A stretch of 64,000 nucleotides of DNA from an uncultured Gammaproteobacteria bacterium (GTDB lineage: Bacteria; Patescibacteriota; Microgenomatia; UBA12405; JAHJSD01), in the NCBI GenBank assembly GCA_964428655.1, contig CAYRYE010000001.1, positions 137,328 through 201,327 of the forward strand, read 5' to 3'. Under the pieces are notes generated by a model, which was given only the letters and a program-made list of their open reading frames with translations, had not been told where the DNA came from and ran no database searches. The translations under genes were made by a program, and so were the position numbers. This document shows positions 8,232 to 44,034 of this stretch, piece by piece (positions within the stretch are counted from its first letter, which is position 1; each line of letters begins with the position of its first letter).

Positions 8232-8260
8232 TTGACAAACCTTAGTTTTGGGTATATATT
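8232..8260 (+). promoter_or_regulatory. Sigma-70-like promoter (TTGACA, 17 nt, TATATT) placing the TSS at or next to the ATG of the DUF134 gene, implying a leaderless transcript.
   Basis: TTGACA at 8232-8237 and TATATT at 8255-8260; the ATG at 8267 has no Shine-Dalgarno upstream. Confidence 0.35.
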
Positions 8261-8266
8261 CATAAT

Positions 8267-8758
8267 ATGCCAAGACCAAAAAGATTTAGAAGAGTTCGTT
8301 TCTTGCCGGAAATAACATATTTTAAACCCAATGGCGTTCCATTAAAGTGGCTTGGAAAAGTATCCCTTTCTCTTGATGAATTAGAGGCTTTAAGATTGGC
8401 AGATTTTGAAGATCAAGATCAGGTAAAAGCGGCCAAGAAAATGAAGATTTCCCAGAGCACTTTTCAAAGGATTTTAGCCTCAGCACGAAAAAAAACCGCC
8501 GAAGCATTAGTAGTTGGCAAAGCAATACAAGTGAAAGGAGGTGAGATAAATATGCCAAGACCAAGGCGAGGACGAGGAGCCGGTTTGGGTGTTGGTGGCG
8601 GCAGGGGTCGAATGGGTGGCCAGTTTGCTGCTGGTCCTGGTGGGTTTTGTGTCTGCACTGATCCTAAGTGTAAACATAAAATACCTCATCAAGTTGGAGT
8701 CCCTTGCTATCAAGTTAAATGCCCAAAATGTGATTCGTCCATGATTAGAAAAAGATAG
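8267..8758 (+). CDS. Two-domain protein: N-terminal DUF134 (UPF0251, predicted DNA-binding) fused to a Gly/Arg-rich segment plus a Cys-rich zinc ribbon (DUF5320-like).
   Basis: Residues 1-95 match the DUF134 pattern ([10 protein letters not shown]...FKP.G.P...[15 protein letters not shown]...[29 protein letters not shown]). Residues 96-163 restart with [20 protein letters not shown]... and end with [10 protein letters not shown]...CYQVKCPKC. An internal AAGGAGG (8535-8541) precedes an in-frame ATG at 8552. Confidence 0.7.
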
Positions 8759-8790
8759 ATAATAATTAACTGTTAGAGTTTTTTAAGGAG

Positions 8791-9171
8791 GTGAAAAAAA
8801 TGAAAGTTTGTATTAGTCTTAGCGGCAAGACCCTTGATTCTTTAATCGATTTTAGGTTTGGCCGTTGTCCTTATTTTTTGGTAGTCAACCTAAAGGACAA
8901 GAATAAAGTTAAAGTGGTTAAAAACTCAGCTACTAAAGCTTTTAGGGGTGCAGGGATTAGTGCCGCCCAACTGGTTGCCGATTTGGGAGTAGGCGTAGTT
9001 ATTACTGGCAATATTGGGCCTAACGCCTTTTCAGTTTTACAGTCAGTCGGTGTTAAGATTTTTCAAGGAGCCAATATAACGGCTAAAGAAGCAATAGAAA
9101 AATTTAAAAAGAATGAGTTATTGGAAATAACAGCTGCAACCGGTTCAGGTAGCTGCAGCCAAGAAAAATGA
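8791..9171 (+). CDS. Dinitrogenase FeMo-cofactor-binding-domain protein (NifX/NafY/NifB-C-terminal-like, Nitro_FeMo-Co family).
   Basis: FGRCPYFLVV...GISAAQLVADLGVGVVITGNIGPNAFSVLQSVGVKIF matches the family; 126 aa. Confidence 0.75.
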   Translation: MKKMKVCISLSGKTLDSLIDFRFGRCPYFLVVNLKDKNKVKVVKNSATKAFRGAGISAAQLVADLGVGVVITGNIGPNAFSVLQSVGVKIFQGANITAKEAIEKFKKNELLEITAATGSGSCSQEK

Positions 9172-9174
9172 AAA

Positions 9175-10035
9175 TTGATGAATCAATTTAATAAAATCGC
9201 TGTTACTGGTGGTAAAGGCGGTGTTGGTAAATCAACAGTTTCTGTTTTGTTGGCCTCCCAATTATCAAAAAATGCGAGAGTAGTATTGGTTGACGCTGAT
9301 GTAGAATGTCCCAATGATTACTTTTTAATTGGTGAGAAGCTTAGTACCCAGGTTGAGAAAATTTGGGCCAAGTTTCCAATTTTGGTTAAGAAGAGATGCC
9401 AGCGTTGTGGTTTATGCGCCTTGAAATGTCGTTTTAATGCTGTTTTCGCACCTCAAAATAAATATCCCACCTTTGTTCATAAACTTTGCGCTAATTGCGG
9501 TTTATGCTGGCATATTTGTCCTGAAAAAGCAATTAGAGCGAAAAAGAAACAAACAGGAGAAATTTTTGAAAATAAAGTTAGTAAAAACTTGACCTTAATT
9601 ACCGGTAGGACAATAGGAGTGTTAGATGAATCCGGACCTGTTGTTAATGCTTTAAAAAATTATGCTTTAAATAAGGCCAAAAAATTAAAAGCAAAAATAG
9701 TTTTATTTGACACTGCTCCTGGCACCCATTGCAGTGTTATTCAGGCCCTTCTGGGTCTTGATTTTGCTTTTGTAGTTACCGAGCCAACTCCTTTAGGAGC
9801 CCATGATTTAAAACTGATTTTAGAGGTTTTGCAAAGAATTGGCGTCCCTAGCAAGGTAGTTCTCAACCAAGCTGATTTAGGTGATAGAAATTTAGTGGCT
9901 AAAATTACAAATAGGCTTAATACTGAAATTATTGGAGAAATACCATATTCTCGAGAAATTGTTAATTTGTATTCTCAGGGCAAACTTTTAGATTTTAAAG
10001 CTGCTCGAATTGAAAAATGGTTAAAGAAAAAGTAA
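9175..10035 (+). CDS. MinD/ParA-superfamily P-loop ATPase with inserted 4Fe-4S ferredoxin domain (COG1149-like).
   Basis: Deviant Walker A (TGGKGGVGKST) and two CxxCxxC-type clusters (CQRCGLCALKC, CANCGLCWHICP). Confidence 0.8.
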   Translation: MMNQFNKIAVTGGKGGVGKSTVSVLLASQLSKNARVVLVDADVECPNDYFLIGEKLSTQVEKIWAKFPILVKKRCQRCGLCALKCRFNAVFAPQNKYPTFVHKLCANCGLCWHICPEKAIRAKKKQTGEIFENKVSKNLTLITGRTIGVLDESGPVVNALKNYALNKAKKLKAKIVLFDTAPGTHCSVIQALLGLDFAFVVTEPTPLGAHDLKLILEVLQRIGVPSKVVLNQADLGDRNLVAKITNRLNTEIIGEIPYSREIVNLYSQGKLLDFKAARIEKWLKKK

Positions 10036-10907
10036 AAATTGCTGTTGCTTCCGGCAAAGGCGGGGTTGGTAAATCAATGTTTGCCTCTTGTTTGGCAATT
10101 CTTTTTGCTCAAGAAAAGAAAATAATTGCTGTTGACGCTGATGTTGATGCTCCCAATTTAGACATTTGGTTGGGAAAAGTGAAAAAATGGGATCAGATAA
10201 AAAAAATTTCTGTTTCTGAAAAAGCGATTGTTGTTAGGCAAAAACTCTCACTGTCCAAAGAGTGTTTAGATGTTTGCCAATTTGGCGCCTTAAGTGTAAA
10301 AAACAATAAACTAGCAGTCAATTCCTTTCTTTGTGAAGGTTGCGGCGCTTGCCAGATTGTTTGCCCCTCAGGAGCAATTGAGATGAAAGCGGTTATTAAT
10401 GGTGAAATTCGGATCAAAAGAAACCTTTTTAATTTTCCTTTGATTTCTGCCCAACTTTATCCTGGTGAAACTGGTTCTGGAAAAATTGTTGATGAAATTA
10501 AGCAAGAGGCAGAAAAATTTGACTATGATTTAATGATTATTGATGTTCCGGCCGGAACTGGCTGTCCAGTTATTGCTGCTTTGAAAGATGCCAATCTTGC
10601 CATTTTAATAACTGAACCAATGCCAGCTGCCTTTAGTGATCTGAGAAGAACATTGACTGTTGTCAAATCGTTTAATTTGGACTGGAAAGTGGTTCTTAAT
10701 AAGTGGGACATTAATCTCAAAGTGAGTGAGCGGATCATTGATTGGGCCGGCAATAGGTTTTTGGGCAAAATTAGCTATGATAAAAAAATTTTTCAAGCAA
10801 TTTCCCAATTAAAGCCAATAATGAAAACTAATTTGCCGGTTAAAAAGGAAATCGAAAAGATTTTTCAAGAGTTATCATTGAGTTTTAAGAGGAAAGGAGT
10901 AAAATAG
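10017..10907 (+). CDS. Second MinD/ParA-like ATPase with 4Fe-4S ferredoxin domain (paralog of the preceding gene).
   Basis: ASGKGGVGKSM Walker A; CLDVCQFGAL and CEGCGACQIVCP cluster motifs. Confidence 0.8.
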   Translation: MVKEKVKIAVASGKGGVGKSMFASCLAILFAQEKKIIAVDADVDAPNLDIWLGKVKKWDQIKKISVSEKAIVVRQKLSLSKECLDVCQFGALSVKNNKLAVNSFLCEGCGACQIVCPSGAIEMKAVINGEIRIKRNLFNFPLISAQLYPGETGSGKIVDEIKQEAEKFDYDLMIIDVPAGTGCPVIAALKDANLAILITEPMPAAFSDLRRTLTVVKSFNLDWKVVLNKWDINLKVSERIIDWAGNRFLGKISYDKKIFQAISQLKPIMKTNLPVKKEIEKIFQELSLSFKRKGVK

Positions 10908-10911
10908 CTTT

Positions 10912-12063
10912 GTGACTTTTCCAGTTAGAAAATTGCTTCACTGTTTTTTTAGTTTGTTTTTGTTTTTATCTTTAGCAATCCCTGTTTTTGCCAACCAAGA
11001 TTCAAAAGCAGTTATTTATTTTTTCTGGGGTCAAGGCTGTCCTCACTGCGCCAGGGAAGAAGTTTTTCTAAATGAATTGGCAAAGAAATATTCTAATCTA
11101 GAAATAAAAAGTTTTGAAACTACTCACAGCAGAGAAAACATTGAAATTGCTGAAGAGTTTAGAAAAAAATTAAATATTAAAAATCCAGGCATTCCTTTAG
11201 CTATCATTGAAGATAAATATTTTATTGGTTATTTAAGTGATGAAACAACGGGAAAGGAAATAGAAGCAATTGTTAAAAAAAGCTTGGGTATTTCTGACCA
11301 AGAGAAATTGGCTTTAAACAGAATTAACTTGCCTTTTTTAGGAGAAGTTAATATTAAGGATTTTTCACTTCCTCTCCTTTCTGTTGCTTTAGGGTTTTTG
11401 GACGGCTTTAATCCTTGTGCTATGTGGACCTTGGTTTTTCTTATTAGTCTTCTTTTGGGAATGAGAGATAGAAAAAGAATGTGGATTTTAGGAAGCGCTT
11501 TTATTGTTGCTTCTGCCTTTGTTTATTTTATTATTATGGCCGCTTGGTTAAATCTCTTTTTGTTTCTAGGATTTATTGTTTGGATCAGAATCATAATTGG
11601 TTTAGTGGCTTTAGGGACCGGCGGTTACAATATTCGTGAGTTTTTTATCAACAAACAGGGCGCTTGCAAAGTAACTGGCAGTAAAAAAAGGAAGGCAGTT
11701 TTTGACAAACTTCGTCAAATTACCCAAAAAAAGGAGTTTTTTCTGGCCTTAATTGGTATTATTCTTTTGGCTTTTGCTGTTAATATGGTTGAATTAGTTT
11801 GTTCTGCCGGGTTGCCGGCTGTTTTTACTCAGATTTTAGTAATCAATAATCTTCCGAAATTACAATATTATCTTTATCTTCTTCTCTATATTTTTTTCTT
11901 TATGATTGATGATCTTTTTATTTTTTTTGTGGCCATGACAACTTTAAAAATGTTTGGTATTGAAGGAAAATATGCTCGGTATTCTCGCCTGATTGGCGGC
12001 TTAATGATGTTGGTTATTGGTATTCTTATGCTTTTCAAGCCAGAATTTTTAATGCTTGGCTAA
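10912..12063 (+). CDS. Thioredoxin-fold domain (CPHC) fused to a DsbD/CcdA-like polytopic membrane domain; signal peptide/anchor at the N-terminus.
   Basis: FFWGQGCPHCAREE thioredoxin motif; the TM domain has two conserved Cys in NPCAMW and LVCSAGLP contexts. Confidence 0.55.
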   Translation: MTFPVRKLLHCFFSLFLFLSLAIPVFANQDSKAVIYFFWGQGCPHCAREEVFLNELAKKYSNLEIKSFETTHSRENIEIAEEFRKKLNIKNPGIPLAIIEDKYFIGYLSDETTGKEIEAIVKKSLGISDQEKLALNRINLPFLGEVNIKDFSLPLLSVALGFLDGFNPCAMWTLVFLISLLLGMRDRKRMWILGSAFIVASAFVYFIIMAAWLNLFLFLGFIVWIRIIIGLVALGTGGYNIREFFINKQGACKVTGSKKRKAVFDKLRQITQKKEFFLALIGIILLAFAVNMVELVCSAGLPAVFTQILVINNLPKLQYYLYLLLYIFFFMIDDLFIFFVAMTTLKMFGIEGKYARYSRLIGGLMMLVIGILMLFKPEFLMLG

Positions 12064-12122: not shown

Positions 12123-12195
12123 GGGCGGTTAGCTCAGTTGGTAGAGTACCCGCTTGACGTGCGGAAGGTCAGAGGTTCGAGTCCTCTACCGCCCA
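12123..12195 (+). tRNA. tRNA-Val (anticodon GAC).
   Basis: Cloverleaf folded by hand: acceptor gggcggt/accgccc, T-arm agagg-ttcgagt-cctct, anticodon loop ttGACgt; no encoded CCA. Confidence 0.85.
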
Positions 12196-12230
12196 CTGCA
12201 CTCCGCCCGTAGTTTTGACACTAGGTAAGA

Positions 12231-12304
12231 GGGCACATAGCTCAGTTGGTTAGAGTGTCGTCCTGATAAGACGAAGGTCCCTGGTTCGAGTCCAGGTGTG
12301 CCCA
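12231..12304 (+). tRNA. tRNA-Ile (anticodon GAT).
   Basis: Acceptor gggcaca/tgtgccc, anticodon stem tcgtc/gacga, loop ctGATaa, T-arm cctgg-ttcgagt-ccagg. Confidence 0.85.
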
Positions 12305-12484
12305 CAAGATTTATTCTTCGTTTGGTGAGTAACTTGTGAGCTTGTCCTGAGGAACGAAAGGAGTCTTGCTCAGGAGCCAGTTAGAAAAAGCTAATTTTAT
12401 CAAGGTTGCCTAAGGTTGCACCAAGCGTCCAGTCTTTTTTATTCTCTAAGCGCCGAGAAAATAGATCTAAATATTTGTACTTGT

Positions 12485-12988
12485 TTAATAATATTGAATT
12501 TTGTCTAATCCTTCTTTAACACCAAGCCTTAACAGTCTGGCAAAGACCGTTGGATCTAAAGCATAAACAATAGCAAAAGAACTGGCGAAGATGATTACTG
12601 CCAGCCACCTGGTATATCGACCGCGGGTGCGGGTAAAAAGAACTGCTGACAAAGCAGCCATTACTGTCGGGGCAACAACCTTAATATCACCTAAGGGAAT
12701 AGCGTGACCGGCAATATATCGTTGTTCAGTACCTAAAAAACTGGCTAAATCAAAGCTGACATTGCCTAAAATAAATACAATCTCCAAGATAAAAACTATG
12801 AGCAACCCCCAAGAGGCACTCTTGGTTGATACTCCTTCGGTGCGATAAACTTCATAAAGAATAGTGGGAAGAAGAAAAAGCATTGTCATGAGCGGGTTTA
12901 GGGTATTAAGACCCCAAAGGACACCTACAGCTGCTAAAAAAGTAAGTCCTAAACAAATTGGCGTAGCGTATTGATAGGGTTTGGCCAT
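12485..12988 (-). CDS. Small polytopic membrane protein (167 aa, about 5 TM); possibly an ECF-type substrate-capture component or QueT-like transporter.
   Basis: Hydrophobic profile only; no diagnostic motif. Confidence 0.45.
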   Translation of the reverse strand: MAKPYQYATPICLGLTFLAAVGVLWGLNTLNPLMTMLFLLPTILYEVYRTEGVSTKSASWGLLIVFILEIVFILGNVSFDLASFLGTEQRYIAGHAIPLGDIKVVAPTVMAALSAVLFTRTRGRYTRWLAVIIFASSFAIVYALDPTVFARLLRLGVKEGLDKIQYY

Positions 12989-13086: not shown

Positions 13087-13812
13087 TTGAGGTTTGCTCT
13101 AAATTTGTATTCTGATAAAATCTGCTATTGGATGTATAATGTTGTTTTTTTTGTTTTATTACTAATAACACCTTGGTTTTGGCGTATAGTAAAAATTAAT
13201 GTTTGGATCGCCCTTTTTGTTTTACTTGCTTTTTTAGCTGTGCTTTATTCAAGAAAATTTAGCAAGCTAGGATTCTTCTCAGTGTTTTTTATGATTATTC
13301 TTCTCGTTTTTCAACTGAAAACGACAAGGAAAACTGACTTTTTTTATCTGGATAATGATCAACAAAGAGTCCAACAAGTGAGATTGAGCGAATATCCTCC
13401 GATAAAGATAGATCTGGGGGGAAAGACAATTTGGTTGCCGGTGGGCTATTGGCTTGAAGGACGCCCAGAATCGATTGCCTTTTATCGAGCGAAACAGAAC
13501 TTTTTTGAGCTTGTTGATTCTAATTTGTATTTCTTTGCTAACCATCCCCGGGAAAGAGTAGGAGTTGAGGAATTTGAGAAGCTTCCTTATATTTTCCTAC
13601 CTTTCTTTATCGCCGGTTTACTTGTTCAGGCCAATAAAAAAAACTGGTGGCACTACTTATGTTTTCTAATCTTGCCGGTACTTATTTTGACCTTCTGGGG
13701 TAATGTCAGCGCGTTGGGACCTTTTTTACTGTTCCCATTTCTTATAATCTCTGTTTTTGACGGTTTTTGTTTTTTAATTTTGAAAAGAAGAGATGGAAGT
13801 AGAAAAAAATAA
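13087..13812 (+). CDS. Hypothetical membrane protein (the likely true start is an internal Met near 13133).
   Basis: Several TM segments and a coding-like frame that abuts the downstream GT-C gene. Confidence 0.45.
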   Translation: MRFALNLYSDKICYWMYNVVFFVLLLITPWFWRIVKINVWIALFVLLAFLAVLYSRKFSKLGFFSVFFMIILLVFQLKTTRKTDFFYLDNDQQRVQQVRLSEYPPIKIDLGGKTIWLPVGYWLEGRPESIAFYRAKQNFFELVDSNLYFFANHPRERVGVEEFEKLPYIFLPFFIAGLLVQANKKNWWHYLCFLILPVLILTFWGNVSALGPFLLFPFLIISVFDGFCFLILKRRDGSRKK

Positions 13813-15469
13813 AATATTGAACCTTGTATCTCCGGGTCTGTTAATAATTGCGGCTATTTTATTGTTCACTTATAAATTAGATAAAATACCACCGGGCCTA
13901 TATGTTGATGAAGCCAATATTGGCTATAACGCCTATTCAATTCTTAAAACGGGTAAAGATGAGTATGGCAAGAGCTTTCCGGTTTTATTTAGATTGTTCG
14001 GTTCTTATACCCCTGGTTTATTTATTTACTGTTTAGTTCCTTTTATCCGGTTGTTTGGATTAAAAGTTTGGACAATTAGACTATTATCTGTGTTTTCCGG
14101 GGTGCTACTGACGATACTTGTCTTTTTGTTTCTCAAATCAATAAAAAAAAGAAACAGATTGCTGCCTTTATTAGGAGCCCTTCTTTTTATTATTTCTCCC
14201 TGGACAGTCTTTTACAGTCGACTGGGTTATGAGGTAACTTTCGCTTTTGCTCTTTATAGTTTGGGTGTTTATTGGCTTTGGCTGGGGTTAAAAAGACCAA
14301 AATATATAATATTGGGGTTGATCACCCTCTCTTTTTCCGCTTATGGTGCGCATGCACAAAGGTATTTGGCTCCTCTTTTCATCCTTTCTTTTATGGTGAT
14401 TTTCAGTAAAAAGATTTTTAAAAAAAGCTATAAGAAATGGCTTTTGGCTGGTTTTCTTCTGGCATTTTTTATCCAAATCCCCCAGATTCTTCTTATTAAT
14501 ACTCCTGCATTTTGGAATAAGGGAGATATGTTTTATTCCGAGCGAGTTATCAGCTGGAGTCAGGACTGTTTAAGCGGCATTCCACCTTTTTTGGCTGTGC
14601 CGATTGCTTTTGGACGAGAATTGTTATCTCAATGGTTTGCTTATTACTCACCTCGATCACTCTTTTTTTTGCCTGACCCCGATTTACAAAGATCATTACC
14701 GGAGCTATCTGTTTTTTATGACTGGATGATAGTTTCTTATATTTTTGGTTTATTTATACTTTGGAAAGAGAGAAAAGAAGATTGGGCTAAATGTGTTTTC
14801 CTGTTGTTTTTTCTGGCTCCTCTTCCCACTGCTTTTGTGGGTGATCCTTTTTCTACTCAGCGAGCTTTGGCTCTTCTTTTTCCTATGATAATTATCATTT
14901 CCTTGGGGACTAATAAATTAATTTTTCACCTACAAAAATGTTGGTTAAGAGTAATTGTTCTGGGTGCATTAGTGGGTTATTCATTAATTTTTCTGTGGAG
15001 AAGTTATTTTGTTCTTTTTCCTCAAGAAAGAGCTGTAATATGGGGCCAGGGATATGAACAGTTGGCTGCAATTATCAAAAATAATCCTGATCAAAAATAT
15101 GTAATTGATCAGTTTAGAATGAAGCCTGTTTATATAGAGTTGCTTTTTTATTGGCAATACCCTCCGGGTAAATTACATAAAGAAGTTGATCAGGAAATTC
15201 TTAAGAATTATTACGGGTTAACAAAATTTAGTCCTTACTATAATATTGCCAATGTAGAAATAAGACCTATTGTTTGGGGAAACGATATATACAACGAGCA
15301 GATTTTAGTTGGCGATGAATTGTCAATATCTCCAGAACAAGCGATTGAACATTTTTTGAAAGAAACATTTGAAATAAAAGATCCGTTAGGTAATTTGATA
15401 TTCCGTGGTTATCTTACCAATCCGAAATTAAAGTGTGAGATTAACCCTCAAAACATCGAGTGTCAATAA
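13793..15469 (+). CDS. GT-C-fold membrane glycosyltransferase (ArnT / PMT_2 family).
   Basis: After TM1, the first loop YVDEANIGYNAYSILKTGKDEYGKSFPVLFRLFGSYTPGLFIY carries the DE acidic motif typical of ArnT/PMT-like enzymes; 558 aa, polytopic. Confidence 0.7.
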   Translation: MEVEKNKILNLVSPGLLIIAAILLFTYKLDKIPPGLYVDEANIGYNAYSILKTGKDEYGKSFPVLFRLFGSYTPGLFIYCLVPFIRLFGLKVWTIRLLSVFSGVLLTILVFLFLKSIKKRNRLLPLLGALLFIISPWTVFYSRLGYEVTFAFALYSLGVYWLWLGLKRPKYIILGLITLSFSAYGAHAQRYLAPLFILSFMVIFSKKIFKKSYKKWLLAGFLLAFFIQIPQILLINTPAFWNKGDMFYSERVISWSQDCLSGIPPFLAVPIAFGRELLSQWFAYYSPRSLFFLPDPDLQRSLPELSVFYDWMIVSYIFGLFILWKERKEDWAKCVFLLFFLAPLPTAFVGDPFSTQRALALLFPMIIIISLGTNKLIFHLQKCWLRVIVLGALVGYSLIFLWRSYFVLFPQERAVIWGQGYEQLAAIIKNNPDQKYVIDQFRMKPVYIELLFYWQYPPGKLHKEVDQEILKNYYGLTKFSPYYNIANVEIRPIVWGNDIYNEQILVGDELSISPEQAIEHFLKETFEIKDPLGNLIFRGYLTNPKLKCEINPQNIECQ

Positions 15470-43762: not shown

Positions 43763-43880
43763 TTTCCTTTTTAGGTTTGTTGATAGACTTTCAAACTACT
43801 TCAGGTCAATGGGATAGAGGCTAAGGGGCAGGGATAAAGTTTACCGTAAAATAGACTAGAATTAACACGATCTCTGGTTG

Positions 43881-43953
43881 TGCCCCTACGGGGATTTGAA
43901 CCCCGGTCTTCGCCGTGAGAGGGCGATATCCTAAACCACTAGACGATAGGGGC
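43881..43953 (-). tRNA. tRNA-Glu (anticodon CTC).
   Basis: The minus-strand sequence gcccctatcgtctagtggtttaggatatcgccCTCtcacggcgaagaccggggttcaaatccccgtaggggca aligns along its length with canonical bacterial tRNA-Glu. Confidence 0.85.
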
Positions 43954-43957
43954 TTTT

Positions 43958-44034
43958 TGGTGCGCCCGGAGGGATTCGAACCCCCGACCCACTGCTTAAG
44001 AGGCAGGTGCTCTACCAAACTGAGCTACGGGCGC
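43958..44034 (-). tRNA. tRNA-Lys (anticodon CTT), CCA encoded.
   Basis: Minus-strand sequence gcgcccgtagctcagtttggtagagcacctgcctCTTaagcagtgggtcgggggttcgaatccctccgggcgcacca; a clean cloverleaf. Confidence 0.85.

What the first reader, a model, noticed from the sequence alone, without database searches (positions are those of the whole stretch)
8267..12063. DUF134 / NifX-like / twin MinD-ferredoxin ATPase cluster plus a Trx-DsbD membrane protein
Five co-directional, tightly packed genes: a DUF134 DNA-binding-type protein, a Nitro_FeMo-Co (NifX/NafY-like) cofactor-binding domain protein, two paralogous deviant-Walker-A MinD/ParA ATPases that each carry two 4Fe-4S ferredoxin-type Cys clusters, and immediately after them a thioredoxin (CPHC) fused to a DsbD/CcdA-like transmembrane electron-transfer domain. 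The first four form a module conserved in anaerobic bacteria and archaea whose biochemical role has never been established; it is suspected to be a metallocluster carrier or maturation system. Finding it in what looks like a minimal-genome, nitrogenase-free organism, next to a membrane thiol-disulfide relay, suggests a core Fe-S/metallocofactor trafficking function rather than anything nitrogenase-related.
Basis: partly seen in the sequence, partly recalled or inferred. Interest (0 to 1): 0.65.

Follow-up and report, generated by a model that had tools for sequence, protein, structure and literature searches.

The report
ORP-type metal-sulfur operon in CPR bacterium
This is a real five-gene operon from an ultra-small (CPR/Patescibacteria) bacterium: a compact version of the poorly understood 'orange-protein' iron-sulfur ATPase module of anaerobes, followed by a membrane thiol-relay protein. 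The gene set is widely conserved and already known in outline, but its function is still unproven.

Summary
All five genes are present at the stated coordinates and form one tight + strand operon. The domain calls hold, with two corrections. ATPase 2 keeps only 6 of the 8 ferredoxin cysteines. The DUF134 protein carries an extra, unnamed Cys6His C-terminal domain. Genes 1-4 are a minimal version of the ORP (orange protein) gene cluster of Desulfovibrio and archaea, so the module is known but functionally unresolved. Among 80 ATPase-anchored loci from CPR bacteria, DPANN and other archaea and a few other anaerobic bacteria, a NifX-like gene is nearby in 71 and a second ATPase in 64. DUF134 is nearby in 38, and a metal-transporter (CDF)-NifX fusion, which this window lacks, in 23. 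Gene 5 is a secreted CPHC thioredoxin fold fused to a six-helix membrane domain. That domain has no direct Pfam or PDB match but links to DsbD through intermediate sequences (E 4e-18, then 8e-7). Gene 5 lies near the module in 18 of 42 CPR/DPANN loci and 0 of 38 others. Anchored on gene 5 instead, its usual neighbour is DUF134, not the ATPases. Best reading: an ATP-driven metal-sulfur carrier module with a Cys-rich DUF134 regulator and a co-regulated thiol relay. It is a new variant of a known kind, of moderate interest.

The parts
8232..8260 (+). Sigma-70-like promoter match, TTGACA-17 nt-TATATT. It ends 6 nt before the ATG of gene 1, which would give a leaderless or very short leader.
   Evidence: 11 of 12 matches, the best in the region. 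This is a consensus match only. The total number of sites found is not above the shuffled expectation.
8267..8758 (+). Gene 1, 163 aa. DUF134 (sigma-70 region-4-like helix-turn-helix) domain at residues 3-95, a Gly/Arg-rich linker at 97-126, and an unnamed Cys6His zinc-ribbon-like domain (C128, C130, C135, H141, C147, C152, C155; nt 8648-8755).
   Evidence: DUF134 E 1.9e-27; weak sigma70-ECF hit. (the fusion is common in CPR and the Cys/His positions are at least 90% conserved). (no Pfam family for the tail). (737 clusters; fusions with NifX, CDF, PDZ and rhodanese).
8800..9171 (+). Gene 2, 123 aa. Single-domain Nitro_FeMo-Co (NifX-fold) protein of the orange protein / MTH1175 type, without a cationic tail. 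The ATG at 8800 follows GGAGGTG and is preferred over the GTG at 8791.
   Evidence: PF02579 E 5.6e-23. (PDB 1EO1 MTH1175 E 1.7e-21; 2WFB D. gigas ORP E 7.9e-19; 1RDU). (independent gene call of 123 aa)..
9178..10035 (+). Gene 3, ATPase 1, 285 aa. Deviant Walker A P-loop (GKGGVGKS) with an inserted 2x[4Fe-4S] ferredoxin domain (8 Cys, nt 9397-9519). It also has Cys in 'ECPN' (switch I region, nt 9307) and in 'GTHC' (switch II region, nt 9730).
   Evidence: No solved structure has this architecture.
10017..10907 (+). Gene 4, ATPase 2, 296 aa. Paralogue of gene 3 (32% identity) with the same P-loop and switch II Cys (GTGC, nt 10563). The ferredoxin insert keeps only 6 of 8 Cys (C83, C87; C106, C109, C112, C116). 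It has a C-terminal amphipathic extension.
   Evidence: (pattern ALSCCCCCC is unique among 70 class-2 sequences).
10912..12063 (+). Gene 5, 383 aa. Signal-peptide-like N-terminus (residues 1-28, ...PVFA|NQ) and an exported thioredoxin fold with CPHC (C43, C46) and cis-Pro (GIP, P95). This is followed by a six-helix membrane domain of the DsbD/CcdA-SfLAP (LysE) superfamily with Cys at the breaks of TM1 (FNPC, C169) and TM4 (ELVCSAGLP, C297). An invariant Cys252 lies in the basic TM3-TM4 loop.
   Evidence: invariant residues; AF2, pLDDT 79 and 74; hhalign chain E 4.2e-18 and 8.1e-7; direct E 0.084; CPHC in 72 of 80 homologues.

Best explanation
The region is one operon of a CPR bacterium that encodes a stripped-down ORP-type (orange protein complex-like) metal-sulfur handling module plus a co-regulated membrane thiol relay.

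Shown here:
- Gene 2 is a small NifX-fold carrier of the orange protein / MTH1175 type.
- Genes 3 and 4 are a paralogous pair of SIMIBI-class ATPases with the deviant Walker A motif. By family knowledge this motif drives ATP-dependent dimerisation. Each carries an inserted ferredoxin domain and a conserved switch II cysteine.
- Gene 1 is a helix-turn-helix protein (DUF134) fused to a Cys6His module. Elsewhere that module is fused again and again to NifX domains, CDF metal transporters and a rhodanese.
- Gene 5 is an exported CPHC thioredoxin fold on a divergent DsbD-superfamily membrane domain that keeps both intramembrane cysteines.

Inferred:
- The two ATPases form an ATP-gated heterodimer. 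Its Fe-S centres pass electrons or clusters to, or take them from, an inorganic metal-sulfur species held on the NifX-like protein. That species could be an Fe-S or thioferrate-like cluster, or a Mo/W/Cu-sulfide cluster as in orange protein. The module would then act in metal-sulfur storage, mobilisation or delivery, by analogy with NifH/NifX, Mrp/NBP35 and IssA.
- The DUF134-Cys6His protein is the operon's regulator and senses metal or cluster status through its Cys domain.
- Gene 5 carries reducing equivalents from the cytoplasm to an external CPHC domain, as DsbD/CcdA do. It shares the DUF134 regulator rather than being a physical subunit of the ATPase complex.
For: - Domain identities.
- Operon packing and promoter-like site.
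- Conservation around 80 ATPase-anchored loci from CPR, DPANN, methanogens, Thermoplasmata, Asgard, Thermoproteota and a few other anaerobic bacteria: NifX-like gene in 71, second ATPase in 64 (adjacent in 48), DUF134 in 38, DUF5320 in 32, CDF transporter in 30 (23 fused to a NifX domain, 6 to the Cys domain).
- The order DUF134(-Cys), NifX, ATPase, ATPase recurs in at least 12 loci across CPR, DPANN and methanogens.
- The Cys6His domain co-occurs in single polypeptides with Nitro_FeMo-Co in 7 of 10 long proteins tested, once together with rhodanese.
- Fe-S ligands and the switch II Cys are conserved.
- Literature: Orp3-Orp4-Orp8 co-purify and receive Fe-S clusters from MrpORP (PMC6345978). 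Orange protein binds a Mo-Cu-S cluster (PMC6345978, citing Bursakov 2004). The NifX-domain protein IssA stores thioferrate (PMC5524996).
- DsbD relationship. Conserved TM1/TM4 Cys and broken helices.
- Trx-membrane gene near the module in 18 of 42 CPR/DPANN loci against about 2 expected.
- A Trx-ferredoxin:thioredoxin-reductase fusion sits in the same cluster in 5 CPR loci. It would be a plausible cytoplasmic electron donor.
Against: - There is no biochemical evidence for any CPR member.
- Even for the Desulfovibrio ORP complex the role is 'still unclear', and the only phenotype reported is morphological, suggesting cell division (PMC8359166).
- This window lacks the Mrp/NBP35 partner, the CDF-NifX fusion and DUF5320 that accompany the module elsewhere.
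- Its NifX-like protein has no IssA-type cationic tail.
- ATPase 2 has lost two cluster ligands.
- The Cys6His domain may simply bind structural zinc; only weak zinc-ribbon similarities were found.
- DsbD similarity is not significant directly (hhalign E 0.084). There were no Pfam, PDB or Foldseek hits.
- Most Trx-membrane genes are not next to the ATPases (2 of 25).
- DNA binding by DUF134 is predicted only.
Confidence: 0.5

Rival explanations
1. Cell-division or positioning system. The two MinD-family ATPases act as a redox-sensitive spatial regulator, as proposed for the Desulfovibrio ORP complex. The NifX-like protein and Fe-S clusters serve only as redox sensors.
For: - The P-loop region is most similar to MinD, FlhG and FleN.
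- The ORP literature links loss of orp expression to morphological defects and reports polar localisation of MrpORP (PMC8359166, PMC6345978).
- The ATPase 2 class has a conserved C-terminal amphipathic stretch that could be a membrane-targeting helix.
Against: - Similarity to MinD is confined to about the first 55 residues.
- No MinC/MinE or ParB partners are in the cluster.
- The conserved neighbours are metal transporters (CDF), NifX domains and Cys-rich modules, not division genes.
- The division link in Desulfovibrio is itself described as a hypothesis.
Confidence: 0.12
2. Metal or sulfide stress-defence regulon. DUF134 controls a set of detoxification genes. NifX-like proteins and ATPases sequester toxic metal sulfides, and CDF (in relatives) exports the metal. 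The CPHC-Trx/DsbD-like protein protects envelope thiols, like ScsB/ScsC in copper tolerance. There would be no role in building cofactors.
For: - CDF efflux transporters are fused to NifX or Cys domains, and Znu-like ABC genes sit in the same clusters.
- The profile of the Trx domain hits DsbA and ScsC-type copper-resistance proteins in PDB.
- Orange protein binds a Mo-Cu sulfide cluster (PMC6345978).
- DUF134 is the neighbour shared by both gene sets.
Against: - The window itself has no CDF.
- The module is kept in very small genomes, which suggests a housekeeping rather than an accessory role.
- IssA-type NifX proteins can reconstitute ferredoxin clusters (PMC5524996, PMC8351635).
- MrpORP transfers clusters to Orp3/4 (PMC6345978), which points to supply rather than disposal.
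Confidence: 0.2
3. Gene 5 is functionally independent. It is a general envelope thiol-disulfide oxidoreductase of CPR/DPANN cells that happens to sit at the end of this operon, and the five-gene unit is not one system.
For: - The family is very large (more than 5,400 clusters).
- It usually lies away from the ATPases. Only 2 of 25 loci with 5 kb on both sides have one, and 1 of 25 has a NifX gene.
Against: - There is a 4-nt gap to ATPase 2 in the window.
- In the complete Nealsonbacteria genome, ATPase 2, DUF134 and Trx-membrane overlap start to stop.
- The gene lies near the module in 18 of 42 CPR/DPANN loci against about 2 expected by chance.
- DUF134 is directly upstream in 12 of 46 loci.
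Confidence: 0.3

Closest known systems
ORP (orange protein) complex and orp operons of Desulfovibrio vulgaris Hildenborough / D. gigas (Orp3, Orp4, Orp8, plus Orp5, Orp7, Orp9 = MrpORP)
   Same: - A single-domain Nitro_FeMo-Co protein, with E 7.9e-19 to the D. gigas ORP structure 2WFB.
- Two paralogous MinD-type ATPases with ferredoxin-type [4Fe-4S] motifs, as described for Orp3/Orp4 in PMC6345978.
- Anaerobe-restricted, and clustered with a small Cys-rich protein.
- A DUF134 gene accompanies the NifX and ATPase genes in a Desulfobulbaceae locus (L073) that was found by ATPase similarity; whether that locus is a canonical orp cluster was not tested.
   Different: - No MrpORP (Mrp/NBP35 + NifX domain) and no sigma-54 activator OrpR next to the cluster.
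- One co-directional operon with a sigma-70-like promoter, instead of two divergent sigma-54 operons.
- DUF134 is fused to the Cys6His domain.
- ATPase 2 has 6 of 8 Cys.
- A Trx-DsbD-like gene is appended.
- Direct comparison with the DVU2103-2109 sequences could not be made.
IssA (Pyrococcus furiosus PF2025), thioferrate iron-sulfur storage protein
   Same: NifX-fold (IPR003731) domain protein in a nitrogenase-free anaerobe. Relatives of the window cluster carry Gly/Arg/aromatic cationic tails on NifX-like and DUF5320 proteins, like the IssA tail described in PMC5524996.
   Different: The window's NifX-like protein ends in ...TAATGSGSCSQEK and has no cationic tail. In this operon the Gly/Arg-rich stretch sits in the DUF134 fusion instead. 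No storage particles have been shown.
DsbD / CcdA / ScsB membrane thiol-disulfide electron transporters (with partners such as ScsC, ResA, CcmG)
   Same: Six-helix domain with Cys in TM1 (x-P-C) and TM4, both at helix breaks. It is preceded by an extracytoplasmic domain, as in DsbD. There is a profile-profile chain to proteobacterial DsbD. A thioredoxin-fold partner is fused on the outside.
   Different: - The Trx domain is N-terminal rather than C-terminal, and there is no immunoglobulin-like alpha domain.
- The active site is the DsbA-type CPHC.
- The TM4 motif is CSAGLP rather than PCxxP.
- There is an extra invariant Cys in the cytoplasmic loop.
- No direct hit to Pfam DsbD_TM or DsbD_2. 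The closest relatives that Pfam does recognise score for DsbD_TM, DsbD_2 or SfLAP.
NifH / NifX-NafY and Mrp-NBP35 (ApbC) Fe-S ATPase-carrier pairs
   Same: - SIMIBI ATPases with the deviant Walker A motif.
- A cysteine in the switch II region (GTHC/GTGC, compare NifH Cys132, from established knowledge).
- They work with NifX-fold cluster carriers.
- Weak NCBIfam hits to MrpORP and ApbC.
   Different: There are no nif genes. The Fe-S clusters lie in an inserted ferredoxin domain rather than only at the dimer interface, and there is no CxxC Mrp motif. Scores are far below the family cut-offs.
MinD/ParA partition ATPases
   Same: Deviant Walker A motif and overall P-loop family.
   Different: The inserted ferredoxin domain with 8 or 6 Cys, no partner genes, and scores far below the MinD equivalog cut-offs (37-59 bits against 200-212 required).

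Membership tests
ORP (orange protein) gene cluster | Single-domain Nitro_FeMo-Co protein homologous to orange protein (Orp8) | tested here: met
   PF02579 E 5.6e-23. PDB 2WFB (D. gigas ORP) E 7.9e-19 over residues 2-106; 1EO1 E 1.7e-21.
ORP (orange protein) gene cluster | Two paralogous MinD-type ATPases, each with two [4Fe-4S] ferredoxin motifs (Orp3/Orp4) | tested here: inconclusive
   The architecture is met for both genes. ATPase 1 has 8 Cys, whereas ATPase 2 has only 6.
ORP (orange protein) gene cluster | MrpORP (Mrp/NBP35 + NifX domain, Orp9) in the cluster | tested here: not met
   Only two P-loop ATPase ORFs of this type and one NifX ORF are present in the 64-kb window. MrpORP NCBIfam scores are 35-56 bits against the 450 required.
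ORP (orange protein) gene cluster | Sigma-54 promoters and the cognate activator OrpR between divergent operons | tested here: not met
   All five genes are co-directional. The flanks are a P-type ATPase and tRNA genes. The best promoter match is sigma-70-like.
ORP (orange protein) gene cluster | Physical Orp3-Orp4-Orp8 complex; Mo-Cu-S cluster on the NifX-fold protein | not testable with these tools
   Requires anaerobic purification and metal analysis.
DsbD/CcdA superfamily (Pfam DsbD_TM, DsbD_2; LysE clan) | Direct significant sequence or profile match to DsbD family models | tested here: not met
   No DsbD hit for the window protein or for 36 close homologues, even at E up to 10. No CcdA/DsbD match in the PDB profile search. 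hhalign against seven proteobacterial DsbD TM domains gives E 0.084, with TM1-TM2 only aligned.
DsbD/CcdA superfamily (Pfam DsbD_TM, DsbD_2; LysE clan) | Homology through intermediate sequences | tested here: met
   - Window family against Trx-membrane proteins of L030, L032, L024, L016, L074 and L057: hhalign E 4.2e-18 over 220 columns.
- Those proteins against DsbD TM: E 8.1e-7 over 195 columns, with both Cys aligned.
- The same proteins hit Pfam DsbD_TM, DsbD_2 or SfLAP at E 1e-9 to 5e-5, and L016 is above the SfLAP cut-off.
- E. coli DsbD TM phmmer hits L030 and L032.
DsbD/CcdA superfamily (Pfam DsbD_TM, DsbD_2; LysE clan) | Six TM helices with redox cysteines in TM1 and TM4 next to proline | tested here: met
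   C169 (FNPC) and C297 (ELVCSAGLP) are invariant in 36 and 42 sequences. The AF2 models show six helices, with TM1 and TM4 interrupted at these Cys.
DsbD/CcdA superfamily (Pfam DsbD_TM, DsbD_2; LysE clan) | Fold match to a solved CcdA/DsbD structure | tested here: inconclusive
Thioredoxin-fold thiol-disulfide oxidoreductase (DsbA/Grx-like) | CxxC active site, cis-Pro loop, Trx fold, export signal | tested here: met
   - CPHC is invariant, and P95 in GIP is invariant.
- AF2 shows a beta-alpha-beta-alpha-beta-beta-alpha fold, and Foldseek gives thioredoxin hits with probability 1.0.
- The profile hits DsbA and Grx in PDB at E 1e-4.
- The N-terminal signal-like segment is read from the sequence.
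MinD/ParA partition ATPases | Equivalog-level similarity and partner genes (MinC/E, ParB) | tested here: not met
   MinD models score 37-59 bits against the 200-212 required, and matches cover only about the first 55 residues. No partner genes lie in the operon.
IssA (thioferrate storage) | NifX domain plus a long cationic, aromatic, Gly-rich C-terminal tail | tested here: not met
   The window protein is 123 aa and has no such tail. Relatives such as L014 8278-8697 do have Gly/Arg tails.
NifX/NafY nitrogenase cofactor carriers | nif gene context (nifB, nifEN, nifHDK) | tested here: not met
   No nif genes lie in the operon or the window. Only the two COG1149-type ATPases match the P-loop profile.
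DUF134 (PF02001 / UPF0251) | Match above the Pfam gathering score | tested here: met
   96.1 bits against 27 required, residues 3-95. Homologues also hit Sigma70_r4 models.

The most novel reading that the evidence does not exclude
In CPR bacteria and DPANN archaea, several parts form one dedicated pathway for acquiring, storing and delivering metal-sulfide (Fe-S) units, replacing or supplementing canonical Fe-S biogenesis in these ultra-small, quinone-less symbionts. The parts are the COG1149 Fe-S ATPase pair, NifX-fold carriers, the unnamed Cys6His module, CDF-NifX transporters and the exported CPHC-Trx/DsbD-like protein. Low-potential electrons would flow from the ferredoxin-domain ATPases, through Trx-FTR fusions where these are present, to the DsbD-like membrane domain and on to an external thiol that handles environmental iron sulfide or polysulfide. 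The DUF134-Cys6His protein would act as the cluster-sensing master regulator.
Probability: 0.12. Interest if true: 0.8.

Novelty: new variant of a known kind. Interest (0 to 1): 0.45.

Why it matters
The COG1149 / NifX-like / DUF134 module is one of the most widely conserved gene sets of anaerobic archaea and bacteria that still has no assigned function. Its retention in CPR and DPANN genomes of roughly 0.5-1 Mb argues that it does something basic.

The comparative picture assembled here ties the module to metal and sulfur handling. It includes CDF-NifX fusions, a promiscuous Cys6His domain fused to NifX, CDF, rhodanese and DUF134, and a CPR/DPANN-specific DsbD-like relay sharing the DUF134 neighbour. 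It also gives concrete, testable parts: a candidate regulator with a candidate sensor domain, and a five-gene minimal set suitable for heterologous reconstitution.

The work also shows that a very large (more than 5,400 clusters), unannotated CPR membrane protein family is a divergent DsbD relative with a DsbA-type active site. That bears on how organisms without quinones manage envelope thiols.

Tried and rejected
2. My first-pass neighbourhood HMMs were built from full-length ORFs and confused DUF134 with the Cys tail. I redid them with domain-specific profiles.
3. I considered that the roughly 410-aa 'Cys+NifX' neighbour was MrpORP. It is a CDF transporter with a NifX domain.
4. I looked for further module genes in the window (DUF5320, CDF-NifX, Trx-FTR, extra NifX or ATPase) and found none.
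5. Literature searches for DUF134, DUF5320, COG1149 or COG1342 in CPR returned nothing relevant. The founding ORP paper (PMC3133258) is not held. I therefore could not verify my recollection that Orp7 is a DUF134 protein or that Orp5/Dde_3197 resembles the Cys6His domain.
6. No Pfam family fits the Cys6His domain. Only sub-threshold zinc-ribbon and HypA similarities appeared.
7. The ordinary MinD/ParA reading was rejected on scores and on the ferredoxin insert.
8. The nitrogenase-related reading was rejected on context.

Full report
**Observation.** An independent gene call exists on an identical public contig (Logan SRR3095939; the same proteins also occur on a 548-kb NCBI contig). It gives the same genes, with ATG starts at 8800 and 9178 for genes 2 and 3. 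Spacing is 41 nt, 6 nt, a 19-nt overlap and 4 nt. The best sigma-70-like match in the region, TTGACA-17-TATATT, ends 6 nt before the first ATG (a consensus match only). tRNA-Val and tRNA-Ile follow gene 5. Upstream lie a LOG/SLOG-family gene and a P-type cation ATPase.

**Domain checks.**
- Gene 1 is DUF134 (E 1.9e-27, residues 3-95).
- Gene 2 is Nitro_FeMo-Co (E 5.6e-23).
- Genes 3 and 4 combine CbiA/ParA P-loop hits with 4Fe-4S ferredoxin hits.
- Gene 5 gives only a weak Redoxin hit.
- The ATPases are paralogues (32% identity), and both have GKGGVGKS.
- ATPase 1 has two complete CxxCxxCxxxC motifs, a Cys in 'ECPN' and a Cys in 'GTHC'.
- ATPase 2 has Leu-Ser where the first two cysteines of motif 1 should be. 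It keeps 6 of 8 ligands, enough for one complete cluster site by ferredoxin rules.
- In a table of 150 related ATPases, 55 of 70 class-2 proteins keep all eight Cys, and the window's pattern is unique.
- No solved structure has this P-loop-plus-inserted-ferredoxin architecture.

**An unreported part of gene 1.** After DUF134 comes a Gly/Arg-rich linker and a 36-residue segment with six Cys and one His (C128, C130, C135, H141, C147, C152, C155). These positions are at least 90% conserved in 20 fusion homologues.
- In the complete Nealsonbacteria genome CP179888 (L014) the same segment is a stand-alone 97-aa protein and DUF134 is a separate gene.
- The segment has no Pfam family.
- An exhaustive search found it in 737 clusters at 50% identity. 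Most are 55-110-aa proteins. Others are C-terminal fusions or tandem copies in long proteins.
- Seven of ten long examples also contain Nitro_FeMo-Co domains, with PDZ domains or, in one case, a rhodanese.
- In the fetched loci it is also fused to CDF transporters and to a NifX domain.

**What genes 1-4 are.** The gene 2 protein matches MTH1175 (1EO1, E 1.7e-21) and the Desulfovibrio gigas orange protein (2WFB, E 7.9e-19). The literature describes the ORP complex of D. vulgaris as follows (PMC6345978):
- Orp3 and Orp4 are similar to each other (41% similarity), each with two [4Fe-4S] ferredoxin motifs.
- Orp8 is the orange protein homologue, with a Mo-Cu-S cluster.
- Orp5 is a small Fe-S protein homologue.
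- Orp9 is MrpORP.
- Orp3-Orp4-Orp8 co-purify and receive Fe-S clusters from MrpORP in vitro.

The operons are switched on only at very low redox potential. The role 'is however still unclear', with cell division as a hypothesis (PMC8359166). Genes 1-4 are thus a compact relative of a named, partly characterised but functionally unresolved system. The window lacks MrpORP and the sigma-54 activator.

**Conservation.** A scan of one genome per species with an ATPase profile returned 80 loci: 21 CPR, 21 DPANN, 34 other archaea (methanogens, Thermoplasmata, Thermococci, Thermoproteota, Bathyarchaeota, Asgard) and 4 other bacteria. The group labels are my assignments from the record titles. Domain-specific HMMs gave these counts within about 10 kb:

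| Feature | Loci (of 80) |
|---|---|
| NifX-like gene | 71 |
| Second full-length ATPase | 64 (adjacent in 48) |
| DUF134 | 38 |
| Cys6His domain | 30 (13 as DUF134 fusions) |
| DUF5320 | 32 |
| CDF transporter | 30 (23 fused to a NifX domain, 6 to the Cys domain) |

The order DUF134(-Cys), NifX, ATPase, ATPase recurs in CPR, DPANN and methanogen loci. In a Desulfobulbaceae locus found by ATPase similarity, DUF134 lies beside the NifX and ATPase genes; I did not test whether this is a canonical orp cluster. The window has no further copies and no CDF-NifX, DUF5320 or Trx-FTR gene, so it is a reduced version.

**Gene 5.** More than 5,400 clusters match it, and the hits that carry a name are CPR. 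Invariant residues are C43-P-H-C46, P95, C169 in FNPC, C252 and C297 in ELxCSAGLP.
- AlphaFold models (pLDDT 79 and 74) show an N-terminal helix, a thioredoxin fold and six membrane helices. The first and fourth helices are interrupted at C169 and C297.
- The N-terminus reads as a signal peptide, and the TM3-TM4 loop is basic. The Trx domain is therefore outside and C252 inside (inference from the positive-inside rule).
- CPHC, the DsbA dipeptide, is present in 72 of 80 metagenomic homologues.
- Pfam, NCBIfam, the PDB profile search and Foldseek recognise only the Trx part.
- Direct hhalign against seven proteobacterial DsbD membrane domains aligns the TM1 'x-P-C' region but is not significant (E 0.084).
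- Trx-membrane proteins sit beside the same module in other CPR/DPANN loci (L030, L032, L024, L016, L074, L057). They match the window family at E 4.2e-18 over 220 columns. They match DsbD at E 8.1e-7 over 195 columns, with both cysteines aligned. They also hit Pfam DsbD_TM, DsbD_2 or SfLAP.
The protein is not a recognisable member of the curated families.

**Is gene 5 part of the system?** Anchored on the ATPase, a Trx-membrane ORF lies in 18 of 42 CPR/DPANN loci and 0 of 38 others. About 2 would be expected by chance, assuming two copies per 0.6-Mb genome (P about 5e-14). In L014 the ATPase 2, DUF134 and Trx-membrane genes overlap start to stop. Anchored on gene 5 in metagenomes, only 2 of 25 loci with 5 kb on both sides contain such an ATPase. 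In contrast, 12 of 46 loci have DUF134 directly upstream on the same strand, and 10 of those have DUF5320 before it. The common denominator is DUF134. This fits a shared regulator better than a shared complex. Five CPR loci also carry a thioredoxin-ferredoxin:thioredoxin-reductase fusion in the cluster, a plausible cytoplasmic donor for a reductive DsbD-type relay.

**Mechanism proposed.**
- Shown: the domain content, the conserved ligands, the operon structure, the conserved neighbourhood and the domain fusions.
- From established family knowledge: deviant Walker A ATPases act as ATP-sandwich dimers, NifX-fold proteins bind inorganic metal-sulfur clusters non-covalently, and DsbD/CcdA move electrons across the membrane through the TM1/TM4 cysteine pair.
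- Inferred: the gene 3 and 4 proteins form an ATP-gated heterodimer that exchanges electrons or clusters with a metal-sulfur species on the gene 2 protein. The gene 1 protein regulates the operon and senses metal or cluster status through its Cys6His domain. The gene 5 protein exports reducing power to its CPHC domain under the same regulator.
- I rate the overall reading at about 0.5. The homology statements are much firmer than the function.

**Rivals.**
- A MinD-like division role, as hypothesised for Desulfovibrio, with some support from an amphipathic C-terminus in the ATPase 2 class.
- A metal or sulfide stress regulon of the ScsB/ScsC type.
- Functional independence of gene 5.

**Novelty and score.** The four-gene core is known as the ORP cluster, also catalogued as the COG1149 / COG1433 / COG1342 neighbourhood. 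The COG numbers and the assignment of DUF134 to Orp7 come from my own recollection and could not be checked, because PMC3133258 is not held. The parts that differ from the described ORP system are:
- the CPR form, with the DUF134-Cys6His fusion;
- a degenerate second ATPase;
- no Mrp partner;
- an appended divergent DsbD-like protein.

The accessible literature says nothing about DUF134 or DUF5320 in this context. I rate it a new variant of a known kind, interest 0.45.

Noticed in passing
window 8648-8755; P0362-P0511; L013 5998-6588; L030 13044-14108: There is an unnamed Cys6His domain with no Pfam family, found in 737 clusters at 50% identity. It occurs alone (55-110 aa), in tandem copies, and fused to DUF134, CDF transporters, NifX domains, PDZ/trypsin proteases and a rhodanese. 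It looks like a family that deserves a name.
   Followed up: partly
L014 8716-9957 and 22 other loci (e.g. L002, L004, L009, L012, L016, L020, L022, L080): A cation-diffusion-facilitator transporter (Cation_efflux + ZT_dimer) is fused to a C-terminal Nitro_FeMo-Co domain. It sits inside the module in CPR, DPANN, methanogens and Bathyarchaeota. It is absent from this window.
   Followed up: partly
window 10845-10904 (C-terminus of ATPase 2) and class-2 ATPases in L007, L009, L014, L017, L030, L032: There is a conserved amphipathic stretch 'KKEIxxIFxxL' (hydrophobic moment 0.7-0.9) at the C-terminus of the second ATPase class only. It might be a MinD-like membrane-targeting helix.
   Followed up: no
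L014 10777-11370; also L005, L009, L010, L027: A thioredoxin fused to the catalytic beta chain of ferredoxin:thioredoxin reductase is encoded inside the cluster in five CPR loci. In L014 a family-4-type uracil-DNA glycosylase and a Znu-like ABC transporter lie next to it.
   Followed up: partly
L083-L162 (metagenome loci anchored on gene 5 homologues): There is a recurrent three-gene unit DUF5320, DUF134, Trx-DsbD-like (10 of 46 loci with enough upstream sequence). DUF5320 has an IssA-tail-like Gly/Arg/aromatic N-terminal half and a coiled-coil C-terminus (L014 7592-7948).
   Followed up: partly
window 12123-12196 and 12231-12305: tRNA-Val(GAC) and tRNA-Ile(GAT) lie 59 nt downstream of gene 5 on the same strand. 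A second tRNA pair (Glu, Lys) lies at 43880-44034 on the minus strand.
   Followed up: no
window 12485-12988 (-), 13087-13812 (+), 13793-15469 (+): Three hydrophobic, polytopic ORFs have no Pfam match at E 0.01. They are typical uncharacterised CPR membrane proteins.
   Followed up: no
window 11665 (Cys252 of gene 5): An invariant cysteine (G-x-C-K-V) lies in the basic, presumably cytoplasmic TM3-TM4 loop. It is specific to the window's subfamily and is absent from the DsbD-recognisable relatives (L030, L032). It could be an extra redox or metal site.
   Followed up: no
window 1-64000: GC skew is positive in almost every 2-kb bin and the cumulative skew rises monotonically. The whole window therefore appears to lie on one replichore, with most genes on the + strand.
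   Followed up: no
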